Below are positions 85 to 30,739 of a DNA stretch of 64,000 nucleotides, piece after piece; within the stretch, counting starts at the first letter, position 1; each line of letters begins with the position of its first letter. The stretch comes from a virus (lineage: Duplodnaviria > Heunggongvirae > Uroviricota > Caudoviricetes): the IMG/VR virus record IMGVR_UViG_3300001487_000052, positions 37,503 through 101,502 of that record, one strand, 5' to 3'. The notes beneath the pieces were generated by a model. It saw only the letters and a list, made by a program, of their open reading frames with translations. It was not told the DNA's origin and searched no databases. Made by a program: the position numbers and the translations under genes.

Positions 85-588
85 ATGAAGATTAGAATAA
101 AGAATTATAGTACAGGTAATGATAATCTTGATAGTCTTCTTAACTCTGCCTTTACTTCTGGATATATGATGGGCCAGAAAGAATTTACTAAGTGGGACGA
201 GACAGATAACCTGAAAAGGGCTAAGGACAGTGATATCTTAGCTGAGGAAAAGAAAAAGAAACCAGGGATGGGTGGTCCTATCATGGCTGGCGTTTCTGGA
301 GCCGTTACAGGTGCTGCTACTGGTGTTGCTGCTGGTGGACTTCTTGGAACATTTAAAAAAGGTGGATCGTTGAAAAAAGGCCTTAATGCTGCAGGTAAAG
401 GAGCTAAACTAGGTGCCATAGGTCTTGGTGCTGGTATGGCTATTGGAGCTTTAAGAAAGAGAAATAAAGAGAAAGATGATATTCAGTTCTATAATAAACG
501 TTTAGAGTATGCAAAAAGACAAGCCCTAAGACGTGAGAAAGCGGACTGGAAACAAAACATGACTGGTAGAGAAGGATATAGTTATTAA
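85..588 (+). CDS. hypothetical basic glycine-zipper protein (candidate virion-internal or membrane-active protein)
   Basis: 167-aa ORF. GxxxG-rich hydrophobic tracts (GPIMAGVSGAVTGAATGVAAGG; LGAIGLGAGMAIGAL) are flanked by Lys-rich segments. N-terminus MKIRIKNYS weakly resembles the MIIxRQKxF family downstream. Confidence 0.5.
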   Translation: MKIRIKNYSTGNDNLDSLLNSAFTSGYMMGQKEFTKWDETDNLKRAKDSDILAEEKKKKPGMGGPIMAGVSGAVTGAATGVAAGGLLGTFKKGGSLKKGLNAAGKGAKLGAIGLGAGMAIGALRKRNKEKDDIQFYNKRLEYAKRQALRREKADWKQNMTGREGYSY

Positions 589-606: not shown

Positions 607-1020
607 ATGATTATAATTAGACAGAAAAACTTTGGTAAGATCTCTTTTCGTAAGGGTCAAAAAGTAGTAGATGGTGTTAAGAGAACCTACGAAAAATCTA
701 AACTTGGGAAATGGGCCGATAAAAACAAGAGTACTATTGGAATCGTAACTGGAATTACTGGAACTGCTCTTGGTACTGCTAACTTAAGTATCGCTCTTAA
801 GAGAAGTCAGAATGAAAAGAAATTCCAGAAAGAACAGATTGATGCTACAAAGAAACTTACTAAGGCCATCGAAAATAGTAATCAGGAGGAGTTAAAGAAA
901 AATAAAAAGCTTGTCAAGAAATCCCAAAAACCCTACACAAGAGACTATTACCTTCCAAAACCAGTTGAGGATTTAAAAGATAAGTCCTTAGAAACAATAA
1001 ATATAAAAAGAAAATCATGA
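607..1020 (+). CDS. MIIxRQKxF-family small basic glycine-zipper protein
   Basis: N-terminus MIIIRQKNFG. Gly-zipper GIVTGITGTALGTA. Lys-rich. Stop overlaps the next start (ATGA at 1017-1020). Confidence 0.55.
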   Translation: MIIIRQKNFGKISFRKGQKVVDGVKRTYEKSKLGKWADKNKSTIGIVTGITGTALGTANLSIALKRSQNEKKFQKEQIDATKKLTKAIENSNQEELKKNKKLVKKSQKPYTRDYYLPKPVEDLKDKSLETINIKRKS

Positions 1021-1688: not shown

Positions 1689-1713
1689 TAACAAATAAAT
1701 ACAATAAATAAAT

Positions 1714-4110
1714 ATGGCACAATGGACAGAAACTCTCGAACCCTATATTAAAGTTCAGGAGAGAGTAAAAACTGCAACACTCAATCCTTCTGCTGGTGAG
1801 GATCTGATTATAGGTGTTGCTTTAATATCTGATGCTGGTCCTTCCACTCCAACACTTATCACTAGTCAATCGGAGTTTCTAAGTACCTATGCATCTCAAG
1901 ACGTAACTCAGGCCTACATTGAAGGATTAAATAAACTTTACAAGGGAGATGATAAGACCCTTGCTTCTACTATGTGGGCTAATGCTTATAGACTTGCTGG
2001 TTCTAATTCCATTTTATGTGTTAGAGCAAGTAAGGCTAATAACCTATACTTTACTAAACCACTCAATAACGAAGATGGTACTGATCCTACTACCTATGTT
2101 ATTAGAGATGGTGAAATGTTGAAAAAAGTTCCCTCCTTTAAAATCACTCTTAATGATATTGGAGATGAAGCAAATCTAGATACTGATGGTTGGAGTATTA
2201 ATATTGCAGGAGTAGGTATCTTTGGTAATCGTGTAACTGACGATGGTATTCAATATGATTACTACTGCGGTAATCTTCCTGATCTTATTGATAGTCTTAA
2301 TGACACATCTAAATTCTTCTGCCCAGACTATGAATTCCTTGATAATCAGGGAAATATTATTGAGGTTGATATGAGTGACACTAGTTCCAGGAGTAATGTT
2401 GCAATTTCTAAGATGTTCCTCAAAGAAGTTTATCTTGGAGCAGAAGTTATTGATACCACAGACCCCAGAACTAGTAAGCTTAGCTGGAAAATATTAGACC
2501 ATCCAACTCAGGCTCAGATTGATAAAGCAAGTGCGAGTGGTGAGCCCAAGAACGATTTTAATAAGGTTAGGCAAGTTCCAGTAACTGAGGATAATGCTAA
2601 GGAGGGGCAGGAGATGGTCTTAAGTTTTTATGACGAAGACCATGTTGTTACATATTGTGAATTACAGGATGATAATACTGGTATGCTCTATATCTATACC
2701 ATTAATTATAGCCCTGATCCTAGCCAAGACGAGAAAGATATAATTAACCTCAATGATGCCGCTTATTCTGGATTTGTGGCTGAAAAGAATTATGCTATTA
2801 ATGTTTTTAATTCCTCGACTGAACTTAAAGTTAGAATTCGTAGATTTAATCATAATGCTGTAATTTCTAAAACTCTTAGTAATTCTGAACTGGGAAGCCT
2901 AACTGCAAACGGTCCTTCTCCTTGGACTGTTCTTACTGGCACCCTTGATACTTTTACAGGAGGAGACGAACCAAAAACAGAACTTGATGATAGTGTTCTT
3001 TATCAGGATTTCTATGAGATTGCTGTTTGGGATCCAAGTATCAATGAAGTTGTAAGTTTCTTCAACCTCGGTAATATCCTAGGTCGTGGTGATATGGAGG
3101 TAAGTGAAGTTAATGATCTGCTTAAGATGATTCAACTCTCACTCCCTGATAACCTCGAAGACCTAGATCTTAACTATTTCGGATATACTGAGAATACTGT
3201 AGCTGGTCATCTTGCTCAAATTTTCTGTGACCTTACTATTGACCCAACCGAGTACACAATGCTTAATATTTCCGATTCTGATTTAAAACGTGCTCTTGAT
3301 AATCTCGCTTTGGATGAGGTTTATACTACTGAGGGCTTATGCGACTTAGGAAATACAGAACTTAGCTATCAGAATTATATGGCTTCAATGGCTATTAATG
3401 ATAACTACTTCTATCCCATCTCAACAGTCAACAGCACTAACTATATGACCATCGGAAACTCGGCAACTAAGATTTCTGCTGATTCCTATAAACTGTATAT
3501 GAGTGCTCCTTGGGATATCGATACTGGTACTCTTGGTTGGAAATTCTACTGCAGTCCATCCGTCATCTATTGGGAGACTGTTGCTAAGAATAGAAGAAAT
3601 AATAGAGAGTTTGCTCCAATTCTTGGTCAGGATAATGGAACTGTTCAATATCAGAGACCAACTACCGAATTCAATAAGAGGACTAGACAACTCTTACTCT
3701 CGAGAAAAGTCAACACTGCTATGTGGGATGTTGCTCTTCAAGCTTGGGTAATGAATGATAACTATACGAAACAGACTGAAAATACTATCATGAATGATGA
3801 GGGTAATTCTCGTCTTATGATTCGTATTAGTAAAGCCATGCCCACACTTCTTAGACAGTATATTGGTAAGAGAATTTCCGAGAAACTTTGTAAGAACGTT
3901 GAAGATACTATTGACTATTTCTTCAAAACTAACATTCTTAGCATGGAGTATAATATTGATGGTTATAGAATCACCTGTAAGTACGATGAGATTCTTGCCA
4001 GACAGAACAAGATTAAAGTCCATATTGAAGTTAGATATCAGAGAGCTCTTAAGTATATTGACGTAATCAACGATGCCTATGAAATAGGCCTTCCGTTTGA
4101 GGGAGAATAA
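1714..4110 (+). CDS. putative tail sheath protein (798 aa)
   Basis: N-terminal region LNPSAGEDLIIGVALISDAGPSTPTLITSQSEFLSTYAS matches the characteristic sheath N-terminal pattern (aliG-x-GP...P-litS-x-eF-x-yG), as in T4 gp18-like sheaths. Large size. Followed by a terminator hairpin. Confidence 0.45.
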   Translation: MAQWTETLEPYIKVQERVKTATLNPSAGEDLIIGVALISDAGPSTPTLITSQSEFLSTYASQDVTQAYIEGLNKLYKGDDKTLASTMWANAYRLAGSNSILCVRASKANNLYFTKPLNNEDGTDPTTYVIRDGEMLKKVPSFKITLNDIGDEANLDTDGWSINIAGVGIFGNRVTDDGIQYDYYCGNLPDLIDSLNDTSKFFCPDYEFLDNQGNIIEVDMSDTSSRSNVAISKMFLKEVYLGAEVIDTTDPRTSKLSWKILDHPTQAQIDKASASGEPKNDFNKVRQVPVTEDNAKEGQEMVLSFYDEDHVVTYCELQDDNTGMLYIYTINYSPDPSQDEKDIINLNDAAYSGFVAEKNYAINVFNSSTELKVRIRRFNHNAVISKTLSNSELGSLTANGPSPWTVLTGTLDTFTGGDEPKTELDDSVLYQDFYEIAVWDPSINEVVSFFNLGNILGRGDMEVSEVNDLLKMIQLSLPDNLEDLDLNYFGYTENTVAGHLAQIFCDLTIDPTEYTMLNISDSDLKRALDNLALDEVYTTEGLCDLGNTELSYQNYMASMAINDNYFYPISTVNSTNYMTIGNSATKISADSYKLYMSAPWDIDTGTLGWKFYCSPSVIYWETVAKNRRNNREFAPILGQDNGTVQYQRPTTEFNKRTRQLLLSRKVNTAMWDVALQAWVMNDNYTKQTENTIMNDEGNSRLMIRISKAMPTLLRQYIGKRISEKLCKNVEDTIDYFFKTNILSMEYNIDGYRITCKYDEILARQNKIKVHIEVRYQRALKYIDVINDAYEIGLPFEGE

Positions 4111-4128
4111 TTCCAAAATTAAATCTTG

Positions 4129-4172
4129 AAAGGAGGGGTTATTGATTTCCACTGAATTAGTAGCCCCTCTTT
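4129..4172 (+). terminator. rho-independent terminator-like hairpin after the sheath-like gene
   Basis: AAAGGAGGGG...CCCCTCTTT inverted repeat (one bulged G) followed by TATATTT and an A-run. Confidence 0.45.
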
Positions 4173-4200
4173 ATATTTAAAAAAAATAATAAAATTTTAT

Positions 4201-5250
4201 ATGAGCAGAAAATTAGAATATAGTATCGCAGAAAAACTCATATTTGAAAAAATAGACTATATAAATAAAGAACATAACTTAGACTTAAATTTCGTAGGGG
4301 TTAAAGATAATTGGATTGGTAATGGAAGTAGAATTCTGTTATTTTGTAATATTCATAAAATAACTATAGATGTAAGCTATAGAAATTTTATTAGATTAGA
4401 AAAGTATGGTTGTCCTGAATGTGCAACTAAAAAACATCATGAATCACAAAGACGAACTACCGAAGAGTTCATTAAACTATCAAAAGAGAAATATGGTGAT
4501 AAATTTACATATGAGAAGACAAACTATGTTACTGCTAAGAAAAAAGTTATAATCACCTGTAAAGAACATGGAGATTTTCTTGTAAGTCCAGATTATCATT
4601 TAAGAGAATCCACTATAGCAGGTGGCTGTCCTGAATGTAAACGTACTGTGTACTATGAATCGAATAAAAGGCCAGTAGAAGAATTTATTGAAAAAGCAAG
4701 AGAAGTGCACGGGGATAAATATGACTACTCTAAGGTTAATTATGTTAATAACATTACACCTATAATAATTATATGTCCTATTCATGGAGAGTTTTCTCAA
4801 CTTCCAACAACACATTTACAAGGCTGTGGGTGTCATAGGTGTAGTTGCTCTATAGGAGAAACCATACTATTTGATTATTTCTCTGAGCATGAAATAACTC
4901 CACTTCATCATACGGTGATACATTATGATGATCATACACTTATACCTGATTTCTTGATAGAACTTAATGGTAAACAATATATGATAGAGTATAACGGGAT
5001 ACAACATTACAACCCAAACAATTATTTTAACTCGTTAAATAATAGAAATTCCAATTTGCAAGGATTCGAGTATCAAAAGAACAGAGACGAGTTAAAGATT
5101 AAATATTGTAACGAAAATAATTTAATTTTAATTATTGTCCCTTATATTCTTGATAAAAAAGAAAAAATTTATAATTATATGGACAAAGTATTATATGAGG
5201 GTATTCCACCGAACTCACTTATAGACTTTGATTCATTATACGTTACATAA
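4201..5250 (+). CDS. homing-endonuclease-like protein: two tandem Zn-knuckle repeats plus a C-terminal Vsr/DUF559-like PD-(D/E)xK nuclease motif
   Basis: Two roughly 70-aa tandem repeats, each CPEC-x-EEFI-x-(H/Y)GDK(F/Y)xY-K-NYV...I-C-x-HG(D/E)F...P-x-HL. C-terminal IPDFLIELNGKQYMIEYNGIQHY resembles the vDf...IE-DG..H endonuclease core. Free-standing between a terminator and the next structural gene. Confidence 0.45.
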   Translation: MSRKLEYSIAEKLIFEKIDYINKEHNLDLNFVGVKDNWIGNGSRILLFCNIHKITIDVSYRNFIRLEKYGCPECATKKHHESQRRTTEEFIKLSKEKYGDKFTYEKTNYVTAKKKVIITCKEHGDFLVSPDYHLRESTIAGGCPECKRTVYYESNKRPVEEFIEKAREVHGDKYDYSKVNYVNNITPIIIICPIHGEFSQLPTTHLQGCGCHRCSCSIGETILFDYFSEHEITPLHHTVIHYDDHTLIPDFLIELNGKQYMIEYNGIQHYNPNNYFNSLNNRNSNLQGFEYQKNRDELKIKYCNENNLILIIVPYILDKKEKIYNYMDKVLYEGIPPNSLIDFDSLYVT

Positions 5251-5262
5251 AATAAACTGGAT

Positions 5263-6000
5263 ATGGATAAAGCGCTACTAGTTGATCTTAAAAAGAAGAT
5301 TTTTATTCGTAGTGCTCTTCTCTCTATTCCTTCTCTTGATGAACTTCTAGGCTTGAATGATTATCTGTCAGCGGATGAGGTTTTACTAGAGTTGATAAAG
5401 AAAGCACTCCGAGAATATGAAAACTCAGTCCCTCTTATCTTGGAAATGAGACTAAACAGGAATCAACTAGGAACCTGTTTTGGAAGAGAAGGGTGGGCTG
5501 AAATAAAATCAAATTTCACCTTATACCTAGATTGTATACTCCCAGAAGAGTCTATAGTTCTAGTACCAAATTCCCTACCCTATATACGAGTTGGAGGATC
5601 ATTGTCATATCCTTCTCCCGGCTCTTATTTTCCAGCAACAGATTATCAGCGCCCCTACTTATTCATGGGTGATTTAATGGGAAATACGGATTTTTATATA
5701 AAGGCGATTTGTTCTAGACCAATCATACCAGACTTCCTTCCTGATAAAACTTTTAATGCAGACTCCAGGAAAGCTGCTATATACTGGTTGAATATAGAAG
5801 AGGGAGCAAGGGGAAACTATTTTATGGACCTTTGTATGGTTCATGTCTTAGATTTCCTTAGACAATTGAAGGCATCTATACAGCTTCCTAATTCCCCAGT
5901 TGATGTTCTCAGTAATACAGATGCGGCATATCAGGAATTAAGATCTAGATGTGACCAATTCCAACTTCAGTCTTCTTGGTATGGTGAATTTTTAATATAA
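5263..6000 (+). CDS. hypothetical protein (245 aa)
   Basis: Long ORF co-directional with the structural block. No recognisable motif. Confidence 0.5.
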   Translation: MDKALLVDLKKKIFIRSALLSIPSLDELLGLNDYLSADEVLLELIKKALREYENSVPLILEMRLNRNQLGTCFGREGWAEIKSNFTLYLDCILPEESIVLVPNSLPYIRVGGSLSYPSPGSYFPATDYQRPYLFMGDLMGNTDFYIKAICSRPIIPDFLPDKTFNADSRKAAIYWLNIEEGARGNYFMDLCMVHVLDFLRQLKASIQLPNSPVDVLSNTDAAYQELRSRCDQFQLQSSWYGEFLI

Positions 6001-6007
6001 GAAGAAT

Positions 6008-6823
6008 ATGATTATAAAGAGAAAACCCGGAATACTAAAAGAGGGTATTAAGAAAATAGTTAAGAGAATTGAAGAGATGCCCTTTGATAATAGGCCTGAA
6101 CCTAAACCTTCTTATATTGAGCTTAAAACTTTTGCTGCACTAGGGGGAGTTAAAGGAGCCACTAAGAGAGCTAGAAGAAGAGTTATGAGAGCTGCTAAGG
6201 ATAGACTTAAACATGGGCTTTTATCTCCTGAAGCTGTTGAAAGAGTAACTAACAGAGAAATCGCGAAAGCTACAAAAAAGGCCAGTACCCCCTTAAAACA
6301 GGATATAAGAGGGGTTATGACAACTGCTAAGGACTCTATAATAAACACCCCTCAGAATCTTAAAACTGCAGTCGTCAAAACTAAAGACATTGCCAAGAAT
6401 ATTTACGAGAATACAGGTGATATAACGGCTAAGACTGCAGGTTGGGCTAGAAAGAATCCAGAGTTAGCACTTTCACAGATTCCTGCCGGTGCTACAAGAG
6501 TTGCTGGTGCTGTAATTGCTCCAGTAAACCCAGCTGCTGCTGCTGCACTACAAGCTGTTCCTGTCACTGCTCCTACCCTAGCTATTTCTAAATTAGTTAG
6601 TGATCCTTATAAAGTTGTTACTTATAAAGGTAAAAAGATGCCAAAATTCAGAAAAAGGGCCATGGCTGGTAAAGAGATGGAGAGAAAGGTTAGTAGTGTT
6701 TTAGGTGGAAAAAGTATTAAGGGTGCTGTTGAAAATATTAAGACGGGAATTACTTCTTTACTTCCTGAACCAATATCACCCCAAGCTATTCCCTCTTATA
6801 GACTAGCAAGAGTGACAATGTAA
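6008..6823 (+). CDS. basic Ala/Lys-rich protein, distant member of the MII family
   Basis: N-terminus MIIKRKPG. Very Lys/Arg-rich. Ala-rich hydrophobic tract AGATRVAGAVIAPVNPAAAAALQAV. Confidence 0.5.
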   Translation: MIIKRKPGILKEGIKKIVKRIEEMPFDNRPEPKPSYIELKTFAALGGVKGATKRARRRVMRAAKDRLKHGLLSPEAVERVTNREIAKATKKASTPLKQDIRGVMTTAKDSIINTPQNLKTAVVKTKDIAKNIYENTGDITAKTAGWARKNPELALSQIPAGATRVAGAVIAPVNPAAAAALQAVPVTAPTLAISKLVSDPYKVVTYKGKKMPKFRKRAMAGKEMERKVSSVLGGKSIKGAVENIKTGITSLLPEPISPQAIPSYRLARVTM

Positions 6824-6835
6824 AAACCTAATGTT

Positions 6836-8047
6836 ATGATTTTATTCAGACAAAAAAACTTCACAATTCAAGAGGGTCATTTTACAGGCACTAAAGATGA
6901 AGATAGACTCCCTGGTGCTGTAGAGGTTATTGGAAAGTCTGCTATTGGAGGTGCTATAATTGGTGCTATAGTAGGAAAATTCAATAAGAAATCTACAGTT
7001 AAGGATGGAGCTGTTTCTGGTGCTAAGTATGGTGCTCTCACAGGAATTGCATTGAAGCTACTTATAAATTATCTTCATAAACCGATGTCCAGAGTTAAAT
7101 ATCAAGAAGTGGACAAGGGAATAAGAAGAGAATATGGAATTTATAAAGCAGGTGGTATTATTATTGGGGATAAACTTGATAAAAGAGCCTCAATGGAAGA
7201 GAGATTTGCTTTTAATGATAGAAATGTGTGTGCCTATAAGATCTGCTTTGCTGTTCAAGATAATCAGGTCACTATGTACACCCTCGGCCTCAGTGATCAG
7301 GAATTAGAAAAACTTAATAACCACCTTGATCATTATTGTAAGGAATATTATGGAATGGAATATACTTCTATCCCTATAAATCAAAAAACTAACTCCTATT
7401 CTGTTAGTATAGTCTTTACAAATTATCAGGTTATTTCTAATTTTATGGTTGAACTTAGCGAACTTCTAGAAACTAAGATTAACCTGCTAGACAATAATGC
7501 TCTAGTAAAAGGAAGATTAGAGGAGAGCCAGAAGTCTTTTAGTGTTACGCCCCTCAATAAGTATGATGTTATGAAAATCCTCAGTAAAAATGGTATAAAA
7601 AGTACTATAAATGCTATTTTTACAAGGAGAATAGGAAAATCAATGTCGCAATTTGTTCTTAATTCAATCCGAGACGTTTGTACTACTATAACAGCTCAGG
7701 ATATGACTAAAGAAGGCATACCAGTTCCTAGACAATTTTATAACAATCCTTATCTTGAAGACACACTAAAGCGACTCCATTATATCGAGGGGTTCAATTA
7801 TACGATATCAGAGAAGGATCAGAAAAATAATATGTCACTTGTCAATGGAATCTTTATCGTCACACTAGAAAAAGGAAGTGATGAAATGAAAGAAGTTGAT
7901 AAAGTATACATAAAGGGGAAGATGAAAAGAACCGATACAGGAAAAGTTATTGTTTATTCTTATTCCTTTAAAGATAAAAACGAATTTGAAATGATCTTAA
8001 AGAAACTGATGTCAACTAAGATTACGTTCAACATATTTGAAGGATGA
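6836..8047 (+). CDS. MIIxRQKxF-family protein with a DRLPG + glycine-zipper module (403 aa)
   Basis: N-terminus MILFRQKNFT. KDEDRLPGAVEVIGKSAIGGAIIGAIVG parallels NKDRLPGDDNALVSGLAKAASGGLGSALG in the 1010-aa protein at 8849. Confidence 0.55.
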   Translation: MILFRQKNFTIQEGHFTGTKDEDRLPGAVEVIGKSAIGGAIIGAIVGKFNKKSTVKDGAVSGAKYGALTGIALKLLINYLHKPMSRVKYQEVDKGIRREYGIYKAGGIIIGDKLDKRASMEERFAFNDRNVCAYKICFAVQDNQVTMYTLGLSDQELEKLNNHLDHYCKEYYGMEYTSIPINQKTNSYSVSIVFTNYQVISNFMVELSELLETKINLLDNNALVKGRLEESQKSFSVTPLNKYDVMKILSKNGIKSTINAIFTRRIGKSMSQFVLNSIRDVCTTITAQDMTKEGIPVPRQFYNNPYLEDTLKRLHYIEGFNYTISEKDQKNNMSLVNGIFIVTLEKGSDEMKEVDKVYIKGKMKRTDTGKVIVYSYSFKDKNEFEMILKKLMSTKITFNIFEG

Positions 8048-8409
8048 TGATTATACTTAGAGAAAAAACCTATTCAAATATTTTTATCGGACGTGTTACA
8101 GGTGAGCTAGATAGAAGTGGATATGAAGATTATGATATTTCTTCTACAGTTCCCGAAGATAGTATAAGTATTAATACCGACCTTTCCCATCTTAAAGTTT
8201 ATATTCCAGTAGACCTTGAGTATAGTCAGTATGGTATTGATGATTTTATACGTTCCCTAGCTCCTTTTATCAGAACTAACACACTCCTTGATAGAAATAT
8301 ATTTGTGATGTCTCTCTCCGGAAGATTAACAGAGACACAATATATAAAGCTGATCAAACATATTATAGATCAAGAAGAAACCTGTATAATTGTAGACGAA
8401 GATGAATAA
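8044..8409 (+). CDS. MIIxREK-family small protein
   Basis: N-terminus MMIILREKTYS. ATGA overlap with the upstream gene. Confidence 0.5.
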   Translation: MMIILREKTYSNIFIGRVTGELDRSGYEDYDISSTVPEDSISINTDLSHLKVYIPVDLEYSQYGIDDFIRSLAPFIRTNTLLDRNIFVMSLSGRLTETQYIKLIKHIIDQEETCIIVDEDE

Positions 8410-8839
8410 TGAGAATATGGCCTCCAGAAACTTAGAAAAGGCCAACAAATTTTATGCTATTGGACTTAAGAATATAAAAATGCAAATGGCCATGGTGGGT
8501 ACTAATTTTGTTGTCTTAAGGCCGAAAGATAATAGTAAATGGAAGAATGTATTTGGAGGCTCATATTCTTCAGAGTCAACGTTAGAAAATGATTATGAAC
8601 AAACTACAACAACGCTCATAATCAATCAAAATGAAATGAGAGATGTATGGAATAGAAACCGTGATATCCTAGAGTCTTATTCTGATGATGGTTCTTTACA
8701 GGTGGGAGATGAATTACAGTACACCAGAGATAAAAGAACTTACAGATTTAAGATATCTATGAAACAGGCATATTCAGAAGCAGGAACGGGATTATACGCA
8801 TATACACTCTCAAGCATAATAGAGACATTGGAAGAATAA
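8402..8839 (+). CDS. hypothetical protein (145 aa)
   Basis: ORF overlapping the upstream stop. Co-directional. Confidence 0.45.
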   Translation: MNNENMASRNLEKANKFYAIGLKNIKMQMAMVGTNFVVLRPKDNSKWKNVFGGSYSSESTLENDYEQTTTTLIINQNEMRDVWNRNRDILESYSDDGSLQVGDELQYTRDKRTYRFKISMKQAYSEAGTGLYAYTLSSIIETLEE

Positions 8840-8848
8840 AGAGCAGTT

Positions 8849-11800
8849 ATGGATACAGATATTAGAAAAACAAATAAGATTCCCGGTTGTGAGCAATTAA
8901 CTAGACCTGAAGAAATAGCTGCACTTTCTAAATATCTTGGGGAAATTAAAAGAATCCAAGAAGAACATACGAAACTGGTGGATGAGGGTCTAGAAGTACC
9001 GGGAAGAACAACAGGAAGAATACCCGAAGTATCTGAACTAGGGGATGCTGTTCTTAGCTTAGAGGACACTAGAGAAAAAACCCTAGAGAATACAAGGCTA
9101 GGAATTACAGGAGATAAAAGAACTGTAGAACTAGAGACAGAAAAGGAAAGACTAACAGACACTAAGGAAATAGGACTCTCACAGAAAAAAGAAAGACTAG
9201 AAGACTCACGAGAAACCAGACTAGAAACTAAGTCTGAGGTTCTAAAGGATCAGAGACAGATAACGCTCGGAGATAAGAAGGAAGAACTTAGAGATAATAG
9301 AAATAATAACCTCTCTGAAAAAACCGAGCGTATTAGTATCGATCCTAAAATAGACAGACTAGAAACTAAGTCTGAAGTTCTAGAGGATCAAAGAAAACAG
9401 TTAGGATTAGAGACAAAAGTAGTGGAGGGAGAAAAAAATGAACAACCTACACTCTCTAAGTACACTGATTCCTTAGATGTACAACAGGAAAATACTCTTG
9501 GGAATTATAAAGAAAATCTACAAGACACTAAAGAAGAGCCATCCTTAACAGACTATGTGATAGGACTGGTAAATGAGGATAGAGTTTCCGGATTGTCTGA
9601 TTCTGTTACACCTCTAAATAATTCGAGGGAAGTAGAAAGCCTAGGGGATCATAAAGAGACTATAGATCCTGAGGAGATAGAAAACCTAGGAAACCACAAA
9701 GAAACTATAGAGCCTAGAGTAGTAGAAAATCTTAGGGGACAAATAAAAGACTTGGATGCTTCTCCTGATCCAAAAAGCCTAGAGGATTATAAAGAGACTA
9801 TAGAACCCAGCAAAGACCTAGAAAACTTTGGAACAACTAAGGACAACACAACCATAAATCCTGAAGATGTAAACCTAGAAACAAATAAATCTGATTGGTT
9901 AAGGGGTGTAATTCAAGCAGCCAATGCAAAAAGGGATGAAGATGGATTATATAATACAGCAATACATCTTTTCTCAGAGGAAGGAACGGAGTGGAGTGAG
10001 AGAGTAGCTGCCCTTATGTCTACTTATCTCAGTGGTTCTAGAATAAGTCCGGAAAGAGCAGAAGAATTTGAAGAATTATTAGCAAGTTCATTTGTATATC
10101 CAGGTTCTACTCCACAACAATTAAGACCAGAGAATCAGACAACAAGAGATGGTGGTAATTACGTAGATCCTGATGAAATTAAAAATAATCCATTCGTTCT
10201 TCGTCCAAACTTATATAGACGTGAAGATAATAACAATGGAGATGGACCAACTAGAGACAATAAAACCTGGGATTATGACGAGAACGGAAATTATGTTTTA
10301 ACAACAGGAGAAAATGAAGATGATGCAAGAAATAATCCCCCTTCATTTGGACTGTATCGAGATAATGGCCTAATACGAACTCCCCAGTATGATCTTAATA
10401 TTGGTCCTGCAGATGCCTCTGCTACAGAAAAGTGGAAAAACATTGGTATAAAAGCTCTAAACAAAGGAGGGGTTAGTAGTTACCTTAGATATGCGGCAGA
10501 ACAAGTTGTAGGAATTGGAGATTGGACTAGAGGATCTTTGAGAACACAACTAATAAACGAGGCCCTAGCACTTCTCGTAAGGAGTAGAGACCAGTTAGAG
10601 AAGGTAGCAAAAATTAACAAAGATAGACTCCCCGGTGACGATAATGCGTTAGTATCTGGTCTTGCGAAAGCAGCTAGTGGTGGTCTCGGAAGTGCTCTTG
10701 GTCAATATGGTTATACCGGCTATGATCCTAAGGCTGGTGTACAGAGTTTAATAAAGACTGGAGTTAATATAGGTAAAAACATAGCTGGTGATGTTATTGA
10801 TTATTTCTCTGAGAAAAAAAGTATTCCTGACTATGGATCACCTGTGCCATCAGAACCATTCAATAGACCAAAAGTAGTTGGAAAAGAGGGAAATAAAATA
10901 CTAACTGAAACTACTAAATATGGCTATGGAACAAATACTAGGGAGTTTAGAAGTAATGAGCTTGGTTCAGGATTTTTAATCACACTTAAGGATCTATGTG
11001 GAAAAGATCAGGGTGCTATCAAGACCGGATCATTAGAAGAGCTACAAAAGATATTAACGGAAAGTGAATTAATTACAACCGCAAGTAAGATTAATAAAAG
11101 AATTCAACGAACTCTGGACTCAAATATGTACTGGGAAGTTGTATTAAAACCTTGGGCATACAATTTGGGAGATAAATACTCTAATGGTGGTTATTCATTT
11201 TTACCAAGTATAAAAGAAATTAACACCATAAACCGAGTTGAGCATGGAGTTGATACAACTTATAATAAATGGATTCCTATCTCAAATTTCGAATTACAAA
11301 AATCTAAATTAACAACTAAGTCTCTAGGATTATTTGATGGAGAGATAAACTATCCGGTGACTTCAGAGTATACGAACGAATTTAGGATGACTGTAGTAGA
11401 TGATCAGTGGAAATCATGGAAACATTACTTTCAGAAGTGTTCAGATGTTTCAGTTTATAACTCAGAACCCCATCCAATTGATTATTACAAGGAGACAAAT
11501 CCAATTCCAACCGCAATCGATAAGAGTACTCTTTGTGCTGCTTTCTATAAAAATATAGCATTTAGTATTGAGATCTATATAATGACTCCTCAAATGTCTA
11601 CCATAAGAAAATTCCACATCTTAGCAATATTAAGAGATTTTTCAGAGGAATATACAGGGGAGTCAGACTCTGGCGGTTCAGACTTAAATGTTAGCTTTTC
11701 TATTGTTGGGGAGGTAGATGATAATGATATATACCTAGATGATACATTTATGGATAGGTATAGTGCTAAAAAGGAAATAGACACAATGTTAAATACCCAA

Positions 11801-14227: not shown

Positions 14228-14728
14228 ATGGCAACAGTAGCTGAATTAGTCCGTGGTGGTGACGGATACATGAAATTTATTGACTACACAAGCACGTATA
14301 AGGATGACAATAAAGAATTCCTGCGTGGTGATATGTGGCAATTCGATTTCCTTAACTGGCCTAGAATCGTATATAGTCCTGGTAATTCTATTTTCCATGC
14401 TCGTCTAAATAGTGTCCAGGTAGGTATCGATGGTGCTGTTAATGGTTTCGAGAAGAGAATGAGAGGAAACTTTGTAATTAGACAACAAACCGGTCAAAAT
14501 ACATCGGGTCAGCTCACTCTTAGTTTTATAGACAAGGAAGATCAGGCTATTTCGTACTTTGTTGATGATTGGAAACAGAAAATTGCCGACAGAGATACAA
14601 AATATAGCTTTAGAAAGGATGATGTTGTTGCAGATTGTCAGCTCGTTCTTACCAATTCCAGCCGTCTCGCAGTTAGAACTTTGAAATTCTATAACTGTGT
14701 GATTATGGATGCTCCGCTCGATAAATAA
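14228..14728 (+). CDS. hypothetical 166-aa protein (size compatible with a tail tube/Hcp-like protein; unverified)
   Basis: Size and position directly after a large structural gene. No motif evidence. Confidence 0.3.
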   Translation: MATVAELVRGGDGYMKFIDYTSTYKDDNKEFLRGDMWQFDFLNWPRIVYSPGNSIFHARLNSVQVGIDGAVNGFEKRMRGNFVIRQQTGQNTSGQLTLSFIDKEDQAISYFVDDWKQKIADRDTKYSFRKDDVVADCQLVLTNSSRLAVRTLKFYNCVIMDAPLDK

Positions 14729-15024
14729 TTTGTCCTTAATAGAAAATATACTATTAAGAAGTCTGAGAATTGCTGGAAAGGTTTAATACTTAATCAGCAG
14801 CCTAAGAAAGGTTTAACGACTATGTACAGAAGCAAATGATATAGTCTAAGTAATAGGGGAACTTATTAGAAAGAAAACTGGAAAACGGAGTAGATGCAGA
14901 TGGAACCGATAGAGCAGACGTACAACTTAGTCTTGCATTTGAACACTACGAGAGAAACTTTGATAATCTCTAAAAAATCCTACCAGAGGGTTTGTGGTGT
15001 TCCTTCTGGTTCTATATATAATTC

Positions 15025-15090: not shown

Positions 15091-15522
15091 ATGATTATAT
15101 ACAGACAAAAAGAATTTGCCTCGACTAAAGAAAGCAGAGAGAAAGTTAAAGAAGCCAATAAGAAAGACAAGACTAGAAAGAACTTGGAAAGAGCTCAACT
15201 AGGAACTGCTGTTGGTGGTGCTGCGACTATAATTGAAGGAAACAGGTTGAAGAAAGCAGCGGAGAAAATTGAGAAGACTATTAAAGGGAAACCTGTGGAT
15301 ATAAAGAAGGTAGAGAAAATGCAAAAACTCGGAAAAACTGCTAAGACTCTACACAAAACCGCACCTTATCTGATTGCTGCTTCTGCTGGTCTCGAGGCTG
15401 TGAAAATTGCTCGTGATATAAAGAAATCAAAGAAAAAGAAGGAGATTGTATTAGATTCTAAGGCCCCTAAGAAAATGAAGGGAAAGGAATCTAAAAGTGA
15501 TCTCCTGAAACTAGACAAATAA
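15091..15522 (+). CDS. MIIxRQKxF-family basic protein
   Basis: N-terminus MIIYRQKEFAS. Gly-zipper LGTAVGGAATIIEG. Lys-rich. Confidence 0.55.
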   Translation: MIIYRQKEFASTKESREKVKEANKKDKTRKNLERAQLGTAVGGAATIIEGNRLKKAAEKIEKTIKGKPVDIKKVEKMQKLGKTAKTLHKTAPYLIAASAGLEAVKIARDIKKSKKKKEIVLDSKAPKKMKGKESKSDLLKLDK

Positions 15523-30664: not shown

Positions 30665-30739
30665 GGTGTGTATAGCTCAATTGGTTAGAGCTCTAGATTG
30701 TGGTTCTAGGGGTTGTCAGTTCGATTCTGACTACACACC
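30665..30739 (+). tRNA. tRNA-His (anticodon GUG) with genomically encoded G-1
   Basis: Manual fold. G-1 at 30665. Acceptor GTGTGTA/TACACAC. D-stem GCTC/GAGC. Anticodon stem CTAGA/TCTAG with loop TTGTGGT. T-arm GTCAG-TTCGATT-CTGAC. Discriminator C at 30739. CCA not fully encoded. Confidence 0.8.

What the first reader, a model, noticed from the sequence alone, without database searches (positions are those of the whole stretch)
4201..5250. Free-standing homing-endonuclease-like gene next to the sheath gene
The ORF has two tandem CPEC zinc-knuckle repeats and a C-terminal Vsr/DUF559-like PD-(D/E)xK motif (PDFLIELNGKQYMIEYNGIQHY). It is an isolated gene, bracketed by a terminator hairpin upstream and the next structural gene 12 nt downstream. 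Such selfish nuclease genes mark recombination hotspots.
Basis: partly seen in the sequence, partly recalled or inferred. Interest (0 to 1): 0.55.

Follow-up and report, generated by a model that had tools for sequence, protein, structure and literature searches.

The report
Free-standing Vsr-type homing endonuclease gene
A selfish, mobile nuclease gene of a known type has recently inserted between the probable tail-sheath gene and the next gene of an uncultured giant phage; it is a very clean example, but of an ordinary kind of element.

The parts
1714..4110 (+). Upstream flanking gene, a probable tail sheath (798 aa). It is not part of the mobile unit. Its sequence resembles the HEG-less relative L001 up to about 4106.
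   Evidence: phrog_23 tail sheath E 4.5e-4, matched in 8 of 9 orthologues, best E 3e-8. Three-way informative sites.
4108..5273 (+). Recently transferred segment (about 1.17 kb): spacer with hairpin, the HEG, the 12-nt spacer and the first few codons of the next gene. It is about 95% nt identical to L069, whose flanks are only about 80% identical. The closest relative L001 has a 67-nt spacer in its place.
   Evidence: Sliding identity, three-way informative sites, junction alignments, blastn against L001.
4130..4172 (+). Terminator-like hairpin after the sheath gene (19-bp stem, 5-nt loop), followed by a weak T-tract.
   Evidence: Fold -24.8 kcal/mol, z -4.65. A hairpin is found at the same position in the HEG-less L001 and L002. 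The window's sequence matches that of HEG-plus L069. The strict terminator scan did not call it.
4201..5250 (+). Free-standing homing endonuclease gene, 349 aa.
4276..4425 (+). Zinc module 1 (residues about 26-75; ligands C49, H52, C71, C74). Inferred to bind DNA.
   Evidence: Pfam CapR homology domain over residues 26-75, E 2.8e-4, below cutoff. Ligands invariant.
4456..4641 (+). Zinc module 2 (residues about 86-147; ligands C120, H123, C143, C146).
   Evidence: Repeat consensus EEFIxKAxxxHGDKYDYSKVxY...CPxHGxF...GCPxC, with C120, C143 and C146 invariant and H123 nearly invariant.
4669..4845 (+). Zinc module 3 (residues about 157-215; ligands C192, H195, C211, C214).
   Evidence: Pfam DUF723 29.3 bits against a cutoff of 20.9, best stretch residues 179-214. 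Ligands invariant.
4846..5190 (+). Vsr-like (EDxHD) nuclease domain, residues about 216-330. Catalytic positions: E220 (4858-4860), D250 (4948-4950), N265 (4993-4995), H269 (5005-5007), D296 (5086-5088).
5251..5262 (+). 12-nt spacer (AATAAACTGGAT) that came in with the HEG and restores an ATG context for the downstream gene.
   Evidence: Identical in L069, absent from L001 and L002.
5263..6000 (+). Downstream flanking gene (245 aa, function unknown, conserved in all relatives). In HEG-less genomes its ATG sits where the HEG's ATG sits here.

Best explanation
The ORF at 4201..5250 is a free-standing homing endonuclease gene of the Vsr-like (EDxHD) family. The protein has three tandem CxxH...CxxC zinc-ribbon modules (DUF723/CapR type), which are inferred to read a long DNA target. 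Its C-terminal Vsr-fold domain carries the residues E220, D250, N265, H269 and D296, which are inferred to cleave DNA with Mg2+. The proposed mechanism is intronless homing. When this phage co-infects a cell with a related phage that lacks the gene, the enzyme cuts the HEG-less genome at or near the sheath|next-gene junction. The break is then repaired from the HEG-carrying genome, which copies the gene into the recipient. What is shown: the domain architecture, intact motifs, purifying selection, presence/absence at exactly this junction, and recent horizontal transfer of a sharply bounded 1.17-kb segment. What is inferred: cleavage itself, where the target lies, and that the transfer was started by the enzyme's own cut. 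Transcription is probably by read-through of the sheath terminator, since the gene has no terminator of its own and the next gene starts 12 nt after its stop. This too is an inference.
For: (1) Family. The protein matches phrog_559 (E 2e-47), phrog_681, phrog_7140 and phrog_9084 and Pfam DUF723 above cutoff. tblastn finds 2098 copies in 710 phage records. Some of these lie inside group I introns and are annotated 'group I intron-associated VSR homing endonuclease'; others are free-standing in jumbo phages.

(3) Catalytic residues. D250, H269 and D296 are invariant and E220 nearly so. They map onto Vsr E25/D51/H64/H69/D97, which is the EDxHD motif defined in PMC3239194.

(4) Absence in the closest relative. 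L001 has flanks 93-97% nt identical but only a 67-nt spacer between the sheath gene and the next gene. L074 and L002 are 97.7% identical over 7.4 kb right up to the HEG's ATG, and L002 lacks the HEG.

(5) Discordant divergence. Against L069 the HEG is about 95% nt (93% aa) identical while the flanks are about 80% nt (sheath 74% aa), with step-like edges at the ORF ends. dS is 0.13 for the HEG against 1.34 for the next gene. Three-way informative sites switch from L001-like to L069-like at about 4108 and back at about 5273.

(6) Selection and composition. dN/dS is 0.24, which points to a functional protein. GC is 29% against 37% in the flanking genes.

(7) No intron. A local Rfam search of 3800-5500 finds no group I intron.
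Confidence: 0.85

Rival explanations
1. The gene is a domesticated endonuclease or DNA-binding protein that serves the phage, for example by excluding competing phages or satellites or by regulating late genes as CapR does. On this reading it is kept by selection rather than by homing.
For: dN/dS is 0.24. Every member of the large related clade carries some allele at this junction. The literature records that CapR-type domains of HEGs have been co-opted as regulators (PMC10448857).
Against: The gene is absent from the closest relative L001 and from L002, L036 and L055, with the surrounding genes intact. All nuclease residues are retained. Its divergence is about ten times lower than that of its flanks against L069, which indicates horizontal spread rather than vertical retention. 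There is no PADLOC hit. Exclusion of competitors is in any case a by-product of homing endonuclease activity and not a true alternative.
Confidence: 0.08
2. The gene is a decaying, inactive remnant of a homing endonuclease gene. On this reading it moved only by ordinary homologous recombination between conserved flanks.
For: The homing cycle predicts degeneration once the gene is fixed. The sharp mosaic edges do not in themselves require a double-strand break.
Against: The reading frame is intact at full length. All zinc ligands and catalytic residues are conserved. dN/dS is 0.24 across 49 substitutions. The 93%-identical copy in L069 has the same length.
Confidence: 0.05
3. [quoted passage not shown]
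For: Members of the same protein family sit inside group I introns in Herelleviridae terminase genes. ORF-less group I introns are abundant in this phage group, including one in the window.
Against: A local Rfam search of 3800-5500 gives no Intron_gpI match at E up to 10, while the same kind of search finds the mini-intron at 14713-14868 at 40.6 bits. The sheath ORF and the next ORF are complete and colinear with those of HEG-less relatives. The insertion lies wholly in the intergenic spacer.
Confidence: 0.02

Closest known systems
I-Bth0305I, prototype of the EDxHD / Vsr-like homing endonuclease family (Bacillus phage 0305phi8-36 recA intron; PDB 3R3P; PMC3239194)
   Different: I-Bth0305I is intron-encoded and binds DNA through two NUMOD2/HTH motifs. 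This protein is free-standing and has three DUF723/CapR-type zinc-ribbon repeats. Its spacing between catalytic residues (E-30-D-19-H-27-D) is closer to Vsr (26/18/28) than to I-Bth0305I (26/17/9). There is no detectable sequence-level match to the PDB entry.
Hef of T4-like phage U5, and free-standing T4 seg/mob endonucleases (intronless homing; PMC2988022; Hef is placed in the Vsr-like family by PMC3239194)
   Same: All are free-standing genes sitting between conserved phage genes. All are present or absent among close relatives and are replaced by other endonuclease genes at the same position. The expected mechanism is a double-strand break in the HEG-less genome followed by gene conversion.
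   Different: Those enzymes have demonstrated cleavage and marker exclusion; none is shown here. The seg and mob enzymes use GIY-YIG and HNH domains.
T5orf172 HEGs with CapR/DUF723/DUF4397 zinc-finger repeats in ICP1 and other phages (PMC10448857)
   Same: Both have the same kind of repeated zinc-finger DNA-binding modules in variable number (3 to 5 among alleles at this junction). In both cases the nuclease genes sit at the boundaries of genetic exchange between related phages.
   Different: The nuclease domain here is Vsr-like rather than T5orf172 (GIY-YIG related).
E. coli Vsr (very short patch repair endonuclease; PDB 1VSR, 1CW0) and DUF559 proteins
   Different: Vsr is a single-domain cellular repair enzyme that nicks at T:G mismatches and has a structural zinc site within the nuclease domain. 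This protein has no such site, has added DNA-binding repeats, and lies in a mobile context. Pfam DUF559 does not match it by sequence.

Membership tests
Vsr-like / EDxHD homing endonucleases | Catalytic domain with the Vsr endonuclease fold | tested here: met
Vsr-like / EDxHD homing endonucleases | Composite motif E, D, x, H, D (Vsr E25, D51, H64, H69, D97) | tested here: met
   The motif is E220, D250, N265, H269, D296. D250, H269 and D296 are invariant and E220 nearly invariant in 38 sequences. The mapping comes from hhalign against E. coli Vsr (weak E 0.094 but in register). Motif definition from PMC3239194.
Vsr-like / EDxHD homing endonucleases | Site-specific double-strand cleavage of the allele that lacks the gene | not testable with these tools
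   This needs a cleavage assay on L001-type junction DNA.
Vsr-like / EDxHD homing endonucleases | N-terminal NUMOD/HTH DNA-binding region, as in I-Bth0305I (a feature of the prototype and not necessarily defining) | tested here: not met
   The N-terminal region instead consists of three DUF723/CapR zinc-ribbon modules. No NUMOD hit appears in Pfam.
Free-standing homing endonuclease genes (intronless homing) | Intergenic location between conserved genes, not within an intron or intein | tested here: met
   The insertion lies wholly in the spacer between the sheath gene and the next gene. There is no Intron_gpI match in 3800-5500.
Free-standing homing endonuclease genes (intronless homing) | Sporadic presence/absence among close relatives at the same site | tested here: met
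   L001, L002, L036 and L055 lack it. The pairs L001/window and L002/L074 differ by the insertion alone.
Free-standing homing endonuclease genes (intronless homing) | Phylogeny discordant with the flanks (horizontal transfer) | tested here: met
   The HEG is 93% aa identical against 74% for the sheath in L069. dS is 0.13 against 1.34. The three-way mosaic has breakpoints at about 4108 and about 5273.
DUF723 / CapR-type zinc-finger DNA-binding repeats | Match to the family profile, with conserved Cys/His ligands | tested here: met
   PF05265 scores 29.3 bits against a cutoff of 20.9. CapR scores 21.4 bits, below its cutoff of 24.2. The three sets of four ligands are conserved: 11 of 12 invariant and H123 nearly invariant. 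DNA binding itself was not tested.
Classical PD-(D/E)xK homing endonucleases (e.g. I-Ssp6803I) | A D...(D/E)-x-K catalytic triad with Lys | tested here: not met
   The stretch after D250 reads E263-Y-N265-G-I-Q-H269. There is no Lys, and His takes the Vsr position.
HNH endonucleases (the label of phrog_559 and of several GenBank records) | HNH (beta-beta-alpha-metal) catalytic motif | tested here: not met
Intron-encoded homing endonucleases | The ORF is embedded in a self-splicing intron that interrupts a host gene | tested here: not met
   The flanking ORFs are complete and colinear with those of HEG-less relatives.

The most novel reading that the evidence does not exclude
The sheath|next-gene junction of this jumbo-phage group may be a dedicated landing pad where Vsr-type HEG alleles compete and replace one another. 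The free-standing HEGs may also cooperate with the ORF-less mini group I introns (158-207 nt) that crowd the adjacent sheath 3' end. On this reading the HEG targets intron insertion sites, so the introns give immunity and are mobilised in trans (collaborative homing). That would make this a natural system caught between free-standing HEGs and composite mobile introns, with introns smaller than any I know to self-splice.
Probability: 0.15. Interest if true: 0.7.

Novelty: new member of a known kind. Interest (0 to 1): 0.35.

Why it matters
In itself this adds one more free-standing Vsr-type homing endonuclease gene to a family with thousands of uncharacterised members. Its value is as an unusually clean natural experiment. 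Donor-like, recipient-like and product genomes are all available, so the transferred segment can be delimited to about 1.17 kb, and candidate target DNA (the L001-type junction) is defined for a cleavage assay. No member with the DUF723-repeat plus Vsr architecture appears to have been characterised biochemically, so this could serve as a test case for how modular zinc repeats set target specificity. The surrounding hotspot (allele replacement, mini-introns) bears on how mobile introns and nuclease genes shape mosaicism in giant phages.

Tried and rejected
- Sequence (phmmer) and profile (hmmsearch) searches of the PDB with the protein and with alignment A3 gave only noise. The fold had to be established through a predicted structure.
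- Pfam on the isolated C-terminal domain gave no DUF559 hit. NCBIfam gave nothing useful. PADLOC gave no hit.
- A DNA-level search of the phage collection with 1700-9000 found no related genome. A tblastn search with the sheath protein found nothing in 50,697 phage records. Relatives came only from IMG/VR and metagenome assemblies.
It was redone with A4.
- No paralogue of the gene was found elsewhere in the 64-kb window.
- The Hef paper (PMC1275590) is not held, so no direct comparison with Hef was made.
- I tested whether intron content in the related sheath genes is tied to the HEG allele, which strict collaborative homing would predict. It is not strictly tied: the same allele occurs with different intron sets.
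- I considered placing the cleavage site inside the replaced 67-nt spacer on the basis of the sharp mosaic edges. I do not commit to this. Free-standing endonucleases often cut hundreds of base pairs from their own gene (PMC2988022), and later recombination can trim co-conversion tracts.

Full report
**1. The observation.**

The ORF reported at 4201..5250 on the + strand is present: ATG to TAA, 349 aa. It also has a third knuckle, C211-H-R-C214. Each CxxC is preceded about 20 residues upstream by a CxxH (C49/H52, C120/H123, C192/H195). In an alignment of 38 family members, 11 of the 12 ligand positions are invariant and H123 is nearly so. The consensus shows a repeated module, EEFIxKAxxxHGDKYDYSKVxY...V.IICPxHGxFxQxPxxHLxGxGCPxC. 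The protein therefore has three tandem zinc modules, not two.

The quoted C-terminal stretch is at residues 249-270. The upstream hairpin (4130-4172, 19-bp stem, 5-nt loop) folds at -24.8 kcal/mol, z = -4.65. The strict terminator scan does not call it, because its T-tract is weak. The next ORF starts at 5263, exactly 12 nt after the stop codon.

The upstream gene (1714..4110, 798 aa) is a probable tail sheath. Its match to phrog_23 is weak here (E 4.5e-4) but is found in 8 of 9 orthologues, best E 3e-8. The candidate gene has 29.1% GC, against about 37% in the genes on either side.

**2. What the protein is.**

Pfam gives DUF723 above its cutoff and the CapR homology domain just below its cutoff. 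PHROGs gives phrog_559 (labelled 'HNH endonuclease', E 2e-47), phrog_681, phrog_7140 ('intron encoded nuclease') and phrog_9084 ('homing endonuclease').

tblastn finds 2098 copies in 710 phage records, often several per genome. Some of these sit inside group I introns that split terminase genes of Herelleviridae. One example is Enterococcus phage 113 ORF171, annotated 'group I intron-associated VSR homing endonuclease'. Others are free-standing in jumbo phages, such as Yersinia phage fHe-Yen9-04 g123. The large protein database holds at least 6833 relatives. Most are longer, with more repeats, and carry PF14311, PF05265 and sometimes PF04480 (DUF559).

Taylor et al. (PMC3239194) define this homing endonuclease family by the composite motif EDxHD. 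It corresponds to Vsr E25, D51, H64, H69 and D97, and to I-Bth0305I E170, D196, N208, H213 and D222. A profile alignment to E. coli Vsr puts E220, D250, N265, H269 and D296 at exactly those positions. The alignment is weak statistically (E 0.094) but is in register with the structural result. D250, H269 and D296 are invariant, and E220 is nearly so.

The motif has no Lys, so it is Vsr-type and not classical PD-(D/E)xK. No HNH domain is present, so the PHROG label is a misnomer.

Barth et al. (PMC10448857) describe CapR/DUF723/DUF4397 zinc-finger repeats as the modular DNA-binding parts of T5orf172 homing endonucleases. Here the same kind of repeat is fused to a Vsr-like nuclease.

**3. Free-standing, not intron-encoded.**

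The whole-window Rfam search finds only a tRNA. A sensitive local search of 3800-5500 finds no group I intron. The same kind of local search does detect a mini-intron elsewhere in the window. The flanking ORFs are complete and colinear with their orthologues.

**4. Presence and absence at this junction.**

A search of IMG/VR with the sheath protein returned 66 loci from uncultured phages with contigs of up to about 400 kb. This search is unbiased with respect to the candidate gene.

- In the closest relative, L001, the neighbouring proteins are 90-98% identical and the DNA is 93-97% identical. There the sheath gene is followed by a 67-nt spacer with a hairpin and then the ATG of the next gene. 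The endonuclease gene is absent.
- L002, L036 and L055 also lack it.
- L004 has two small unrelated genes at that position.

Exact and near-exact copies were then traced through the protein collection. A 93%-identical copy (P0001, loci L069-L073) and a 61%-identical copy (P0015, loci L074-L076) both lie at the same junction. L074 and L002 are 97.7% identical over 7.4 kb right up to the ATG of the endonuclease gene. L002 then continues directly into the next gene, which is only 89% identical and may mark a co-conversion tract. The endonuclease's ATG occupies the position of the next gene's ATG. The insert brings its own short spacer and restores an ATG for that gene.

**5. Recent horizontal transfer.**

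Against L069, nucleotide identity is 93-96.5% across 4201-5250. It drops to about 80% on both sides, in steps that coincide with the ends of the ORF. At the protein level the endonuclease is 93% identical, the sheath 74% and the next gene 87%. Synonymous divergence is 0.13 for the endonuclease gene and 1.34 for the next gene.

At sites where L001 and L069 differ, the window follows L001 up to about 4106, follows L069 from about 4110 to about 5273, and follows L001 again afterwards. The window is therefore an L001-like genome carrying a 1.17-kb L069-like segment. This segment includes the spacer with the hairpin, so the window's hairpin sequence travelled with the gene. HEG-less genomes nevertheless have their own hairpin at the same position.

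dN/dS of 0.24 over 49 substitutions indicates that the protein is under purifying selection.

**6. A hotspot.**

In the more distant relatives (sheath about 50% identical to the window's), the same junction holds endonuclease genes of the same family. They fall into seven further clusters of 360 to 508 aa, with three to five zinc modules. They are 26-30% identical to the window protein and 32-48% identical to one another. Nearly all retain the D...E..G.QH motif.

Six of these clusters occur in genomes whose flanks are 94-99.9% identical at the nucleotide level. These are therefore allele replacements at one site, and not divergence in place.

**7. Mechanism.**

Best explanation, confidence 0.85: this is a free-standing homing endonuclease gene that spreads by intronless homing, the pathway described for T4 seg and mob genes and for Hef (PMC2988022; PMC3984707). 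The zinc modules would bind a long target. The Vsr-like domain, probably acting as a dimer as I-Bth0305I does (PMC3239194), would cut the HEG-less genome during co-infection. Recombinational repair would then copy the gene in.

The sequence evidence above is shown. Cleavage, the target position and the causal link between cleavage and transfer are inferred.

The sharp mosaic edges are compatible with a cut inside the replaced spacer. However, free-standing enzymes often cut far from their own gene, so I leave the target position open.

The rivals are each much less likely: a domesticated function, an inactive remnant moved by ordinary recombination, or an intron-encoded gene. The reasons are given in their entries.

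**8. Comparison with known systems, and novelty.**

The gene meets the testable criteria of the Vsr-like/EDxHD family: fold, motif and mobile context. It differs from the prototype in its DNA-binding region and in being free-standing. This architecture is already abundant in sequence databases and is annotated in some phage records, although I found no biochemical study of a member with it. The gene is therefore a new member of a known kind. The interest is modest, and lies in the clarity of the donor/recipient/product evidence.

**9. By-products.**

The window contains a 158-nt group I intron at 14723-14880. It interrupts a 195-aa gene (14228..14973). Rfam Intron_gpI matches it over the full model at 40.6 bits, below the gathering score of 50, so the whole-window search missed it. 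The HEG-less closest relative, on the same contig as L001, has the uninterrupted gene.

In the large related clade the last 500 nt or so of the sheath gene carries two to six such mini-introns (about 175-207 nt) at seven or more sites. They share conserved P/Q/R/S-like cores. In most of those checked by eye the 5' exon ends in U and the intron ends in G, and the P6 helix shows covariation. Their combinations are only loosely linked to the endonuclease allele.

Noticed in passing
window 14723-14880 (+), within gene 14228..14973: A 158-nt ORF-less group I intron interrupts a 195-aa gene. Exon 1 ends ...GCTCCGCTCGAT and exon 2 starts GAAAACGGAGTA. Rfam Intron_gpI matches the full model at 40.6 bits, below the gathering score of 50, so the whole-window search missed it. 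It has P, Q, R and S cores but almost no P5, P6 or P8. The closest relative (L079, same contig as L001) has the uninterrupted gene; L081 and L082 share the interruption. From memory, the smallest self-splicing group I intron known is about 205 nt (Azoarcus), so self-splicing at this size would be notable.
   Followed up: partly
L005-L066, locus coordinates about 9800-11400 (e.g. L012 9990-11390; L037 9825-10000; L028 9990-10176 and 10429-10604; L007 10146-10350): In the large related clade the last 500 nt or so of the sheath gene carries two to six mini group I introns (about 175-207 nt) at seven or more sites. L005 has an uninterrupted version apart from one intron near the very end of the gene. 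The cores are conserved (AATGCTGGAA, AATCAGCA, TCAACGACTA, GATATAGTCT), P6 shows covariation, and local Rfam hits are below threshold. The window's own sheath gene has none.
   Followed up: partly
L005-L066, junction between the sheath gene and the next gene (e.g. L028 10975-12273; L007 11027-12208; L012 11539-12852; L037 11368-12891; L021 10990-12072; L005 10613-11749): Six very different alleles of the same endonuclease family (360-508 aa, 34-48% aa identity, three to five zinc modules) occupy one junction in genomes whose flanks are 94-99.9% nt identical. This means nuclease genes have replaced one another at a single site. Intron sets and nuclease alleles assort semi-independently.
   Followed up: partly
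L004 10499-11053 and 11119-11712: In this relative the same junction holds two small paralogous genes (184 and 197 aa, starting MRIxKxNFSSIS..EERAFCEGYMYAQxEF) in place of a nuclease gene. Their N-terminal region resembles window ORF 85..588.
   Followed up: no
window 607-1020, 1017-1688, 6836-8047, 8044-8409, 15091-15522 (also 85-588): Several neighbouring ORFs start with a shared N-terminal motif: M-I-I/V/L-x-R-Q/E-K-N/D/E/T-F/Y (MIIIRQKNF, MIVFRQKDF, MILFRQKNF, MMIILREKTY, MIIYRQKEF). Several are rich in Gly, Ala and Lys. They may be a paralogous family of virion or internal proteins with a common leader or processing signal.
   Followed up: no
window 6008-6823: The second gene downstream (271 aa, rich in Ala and Lys) is hypervariable. 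It cannot be aligned at the DNA level with the closest relative L001 (49% aa over 49 residues) and is 58% aa identical in L069, while the genes on either side of it are 75-98% identical.
   Followed up: no
L005, L020, L024, between the nuclease gene and the next gene (e.g. L005 11750-12010): In genomes with the 378-aa allele, the match to the next gene begins only at residue 20, about 260 nt after the nuclease gene, and an intron-core match lies nearby. This suggests a further mini-intron in the 5' end of that gene.
   Followed up: no
window 30666-30739 (+): A tRNA gene (Rfam RF00005, 65.6 bits). It was the only Rfam match above gathering score in the window.
   Followed up: no
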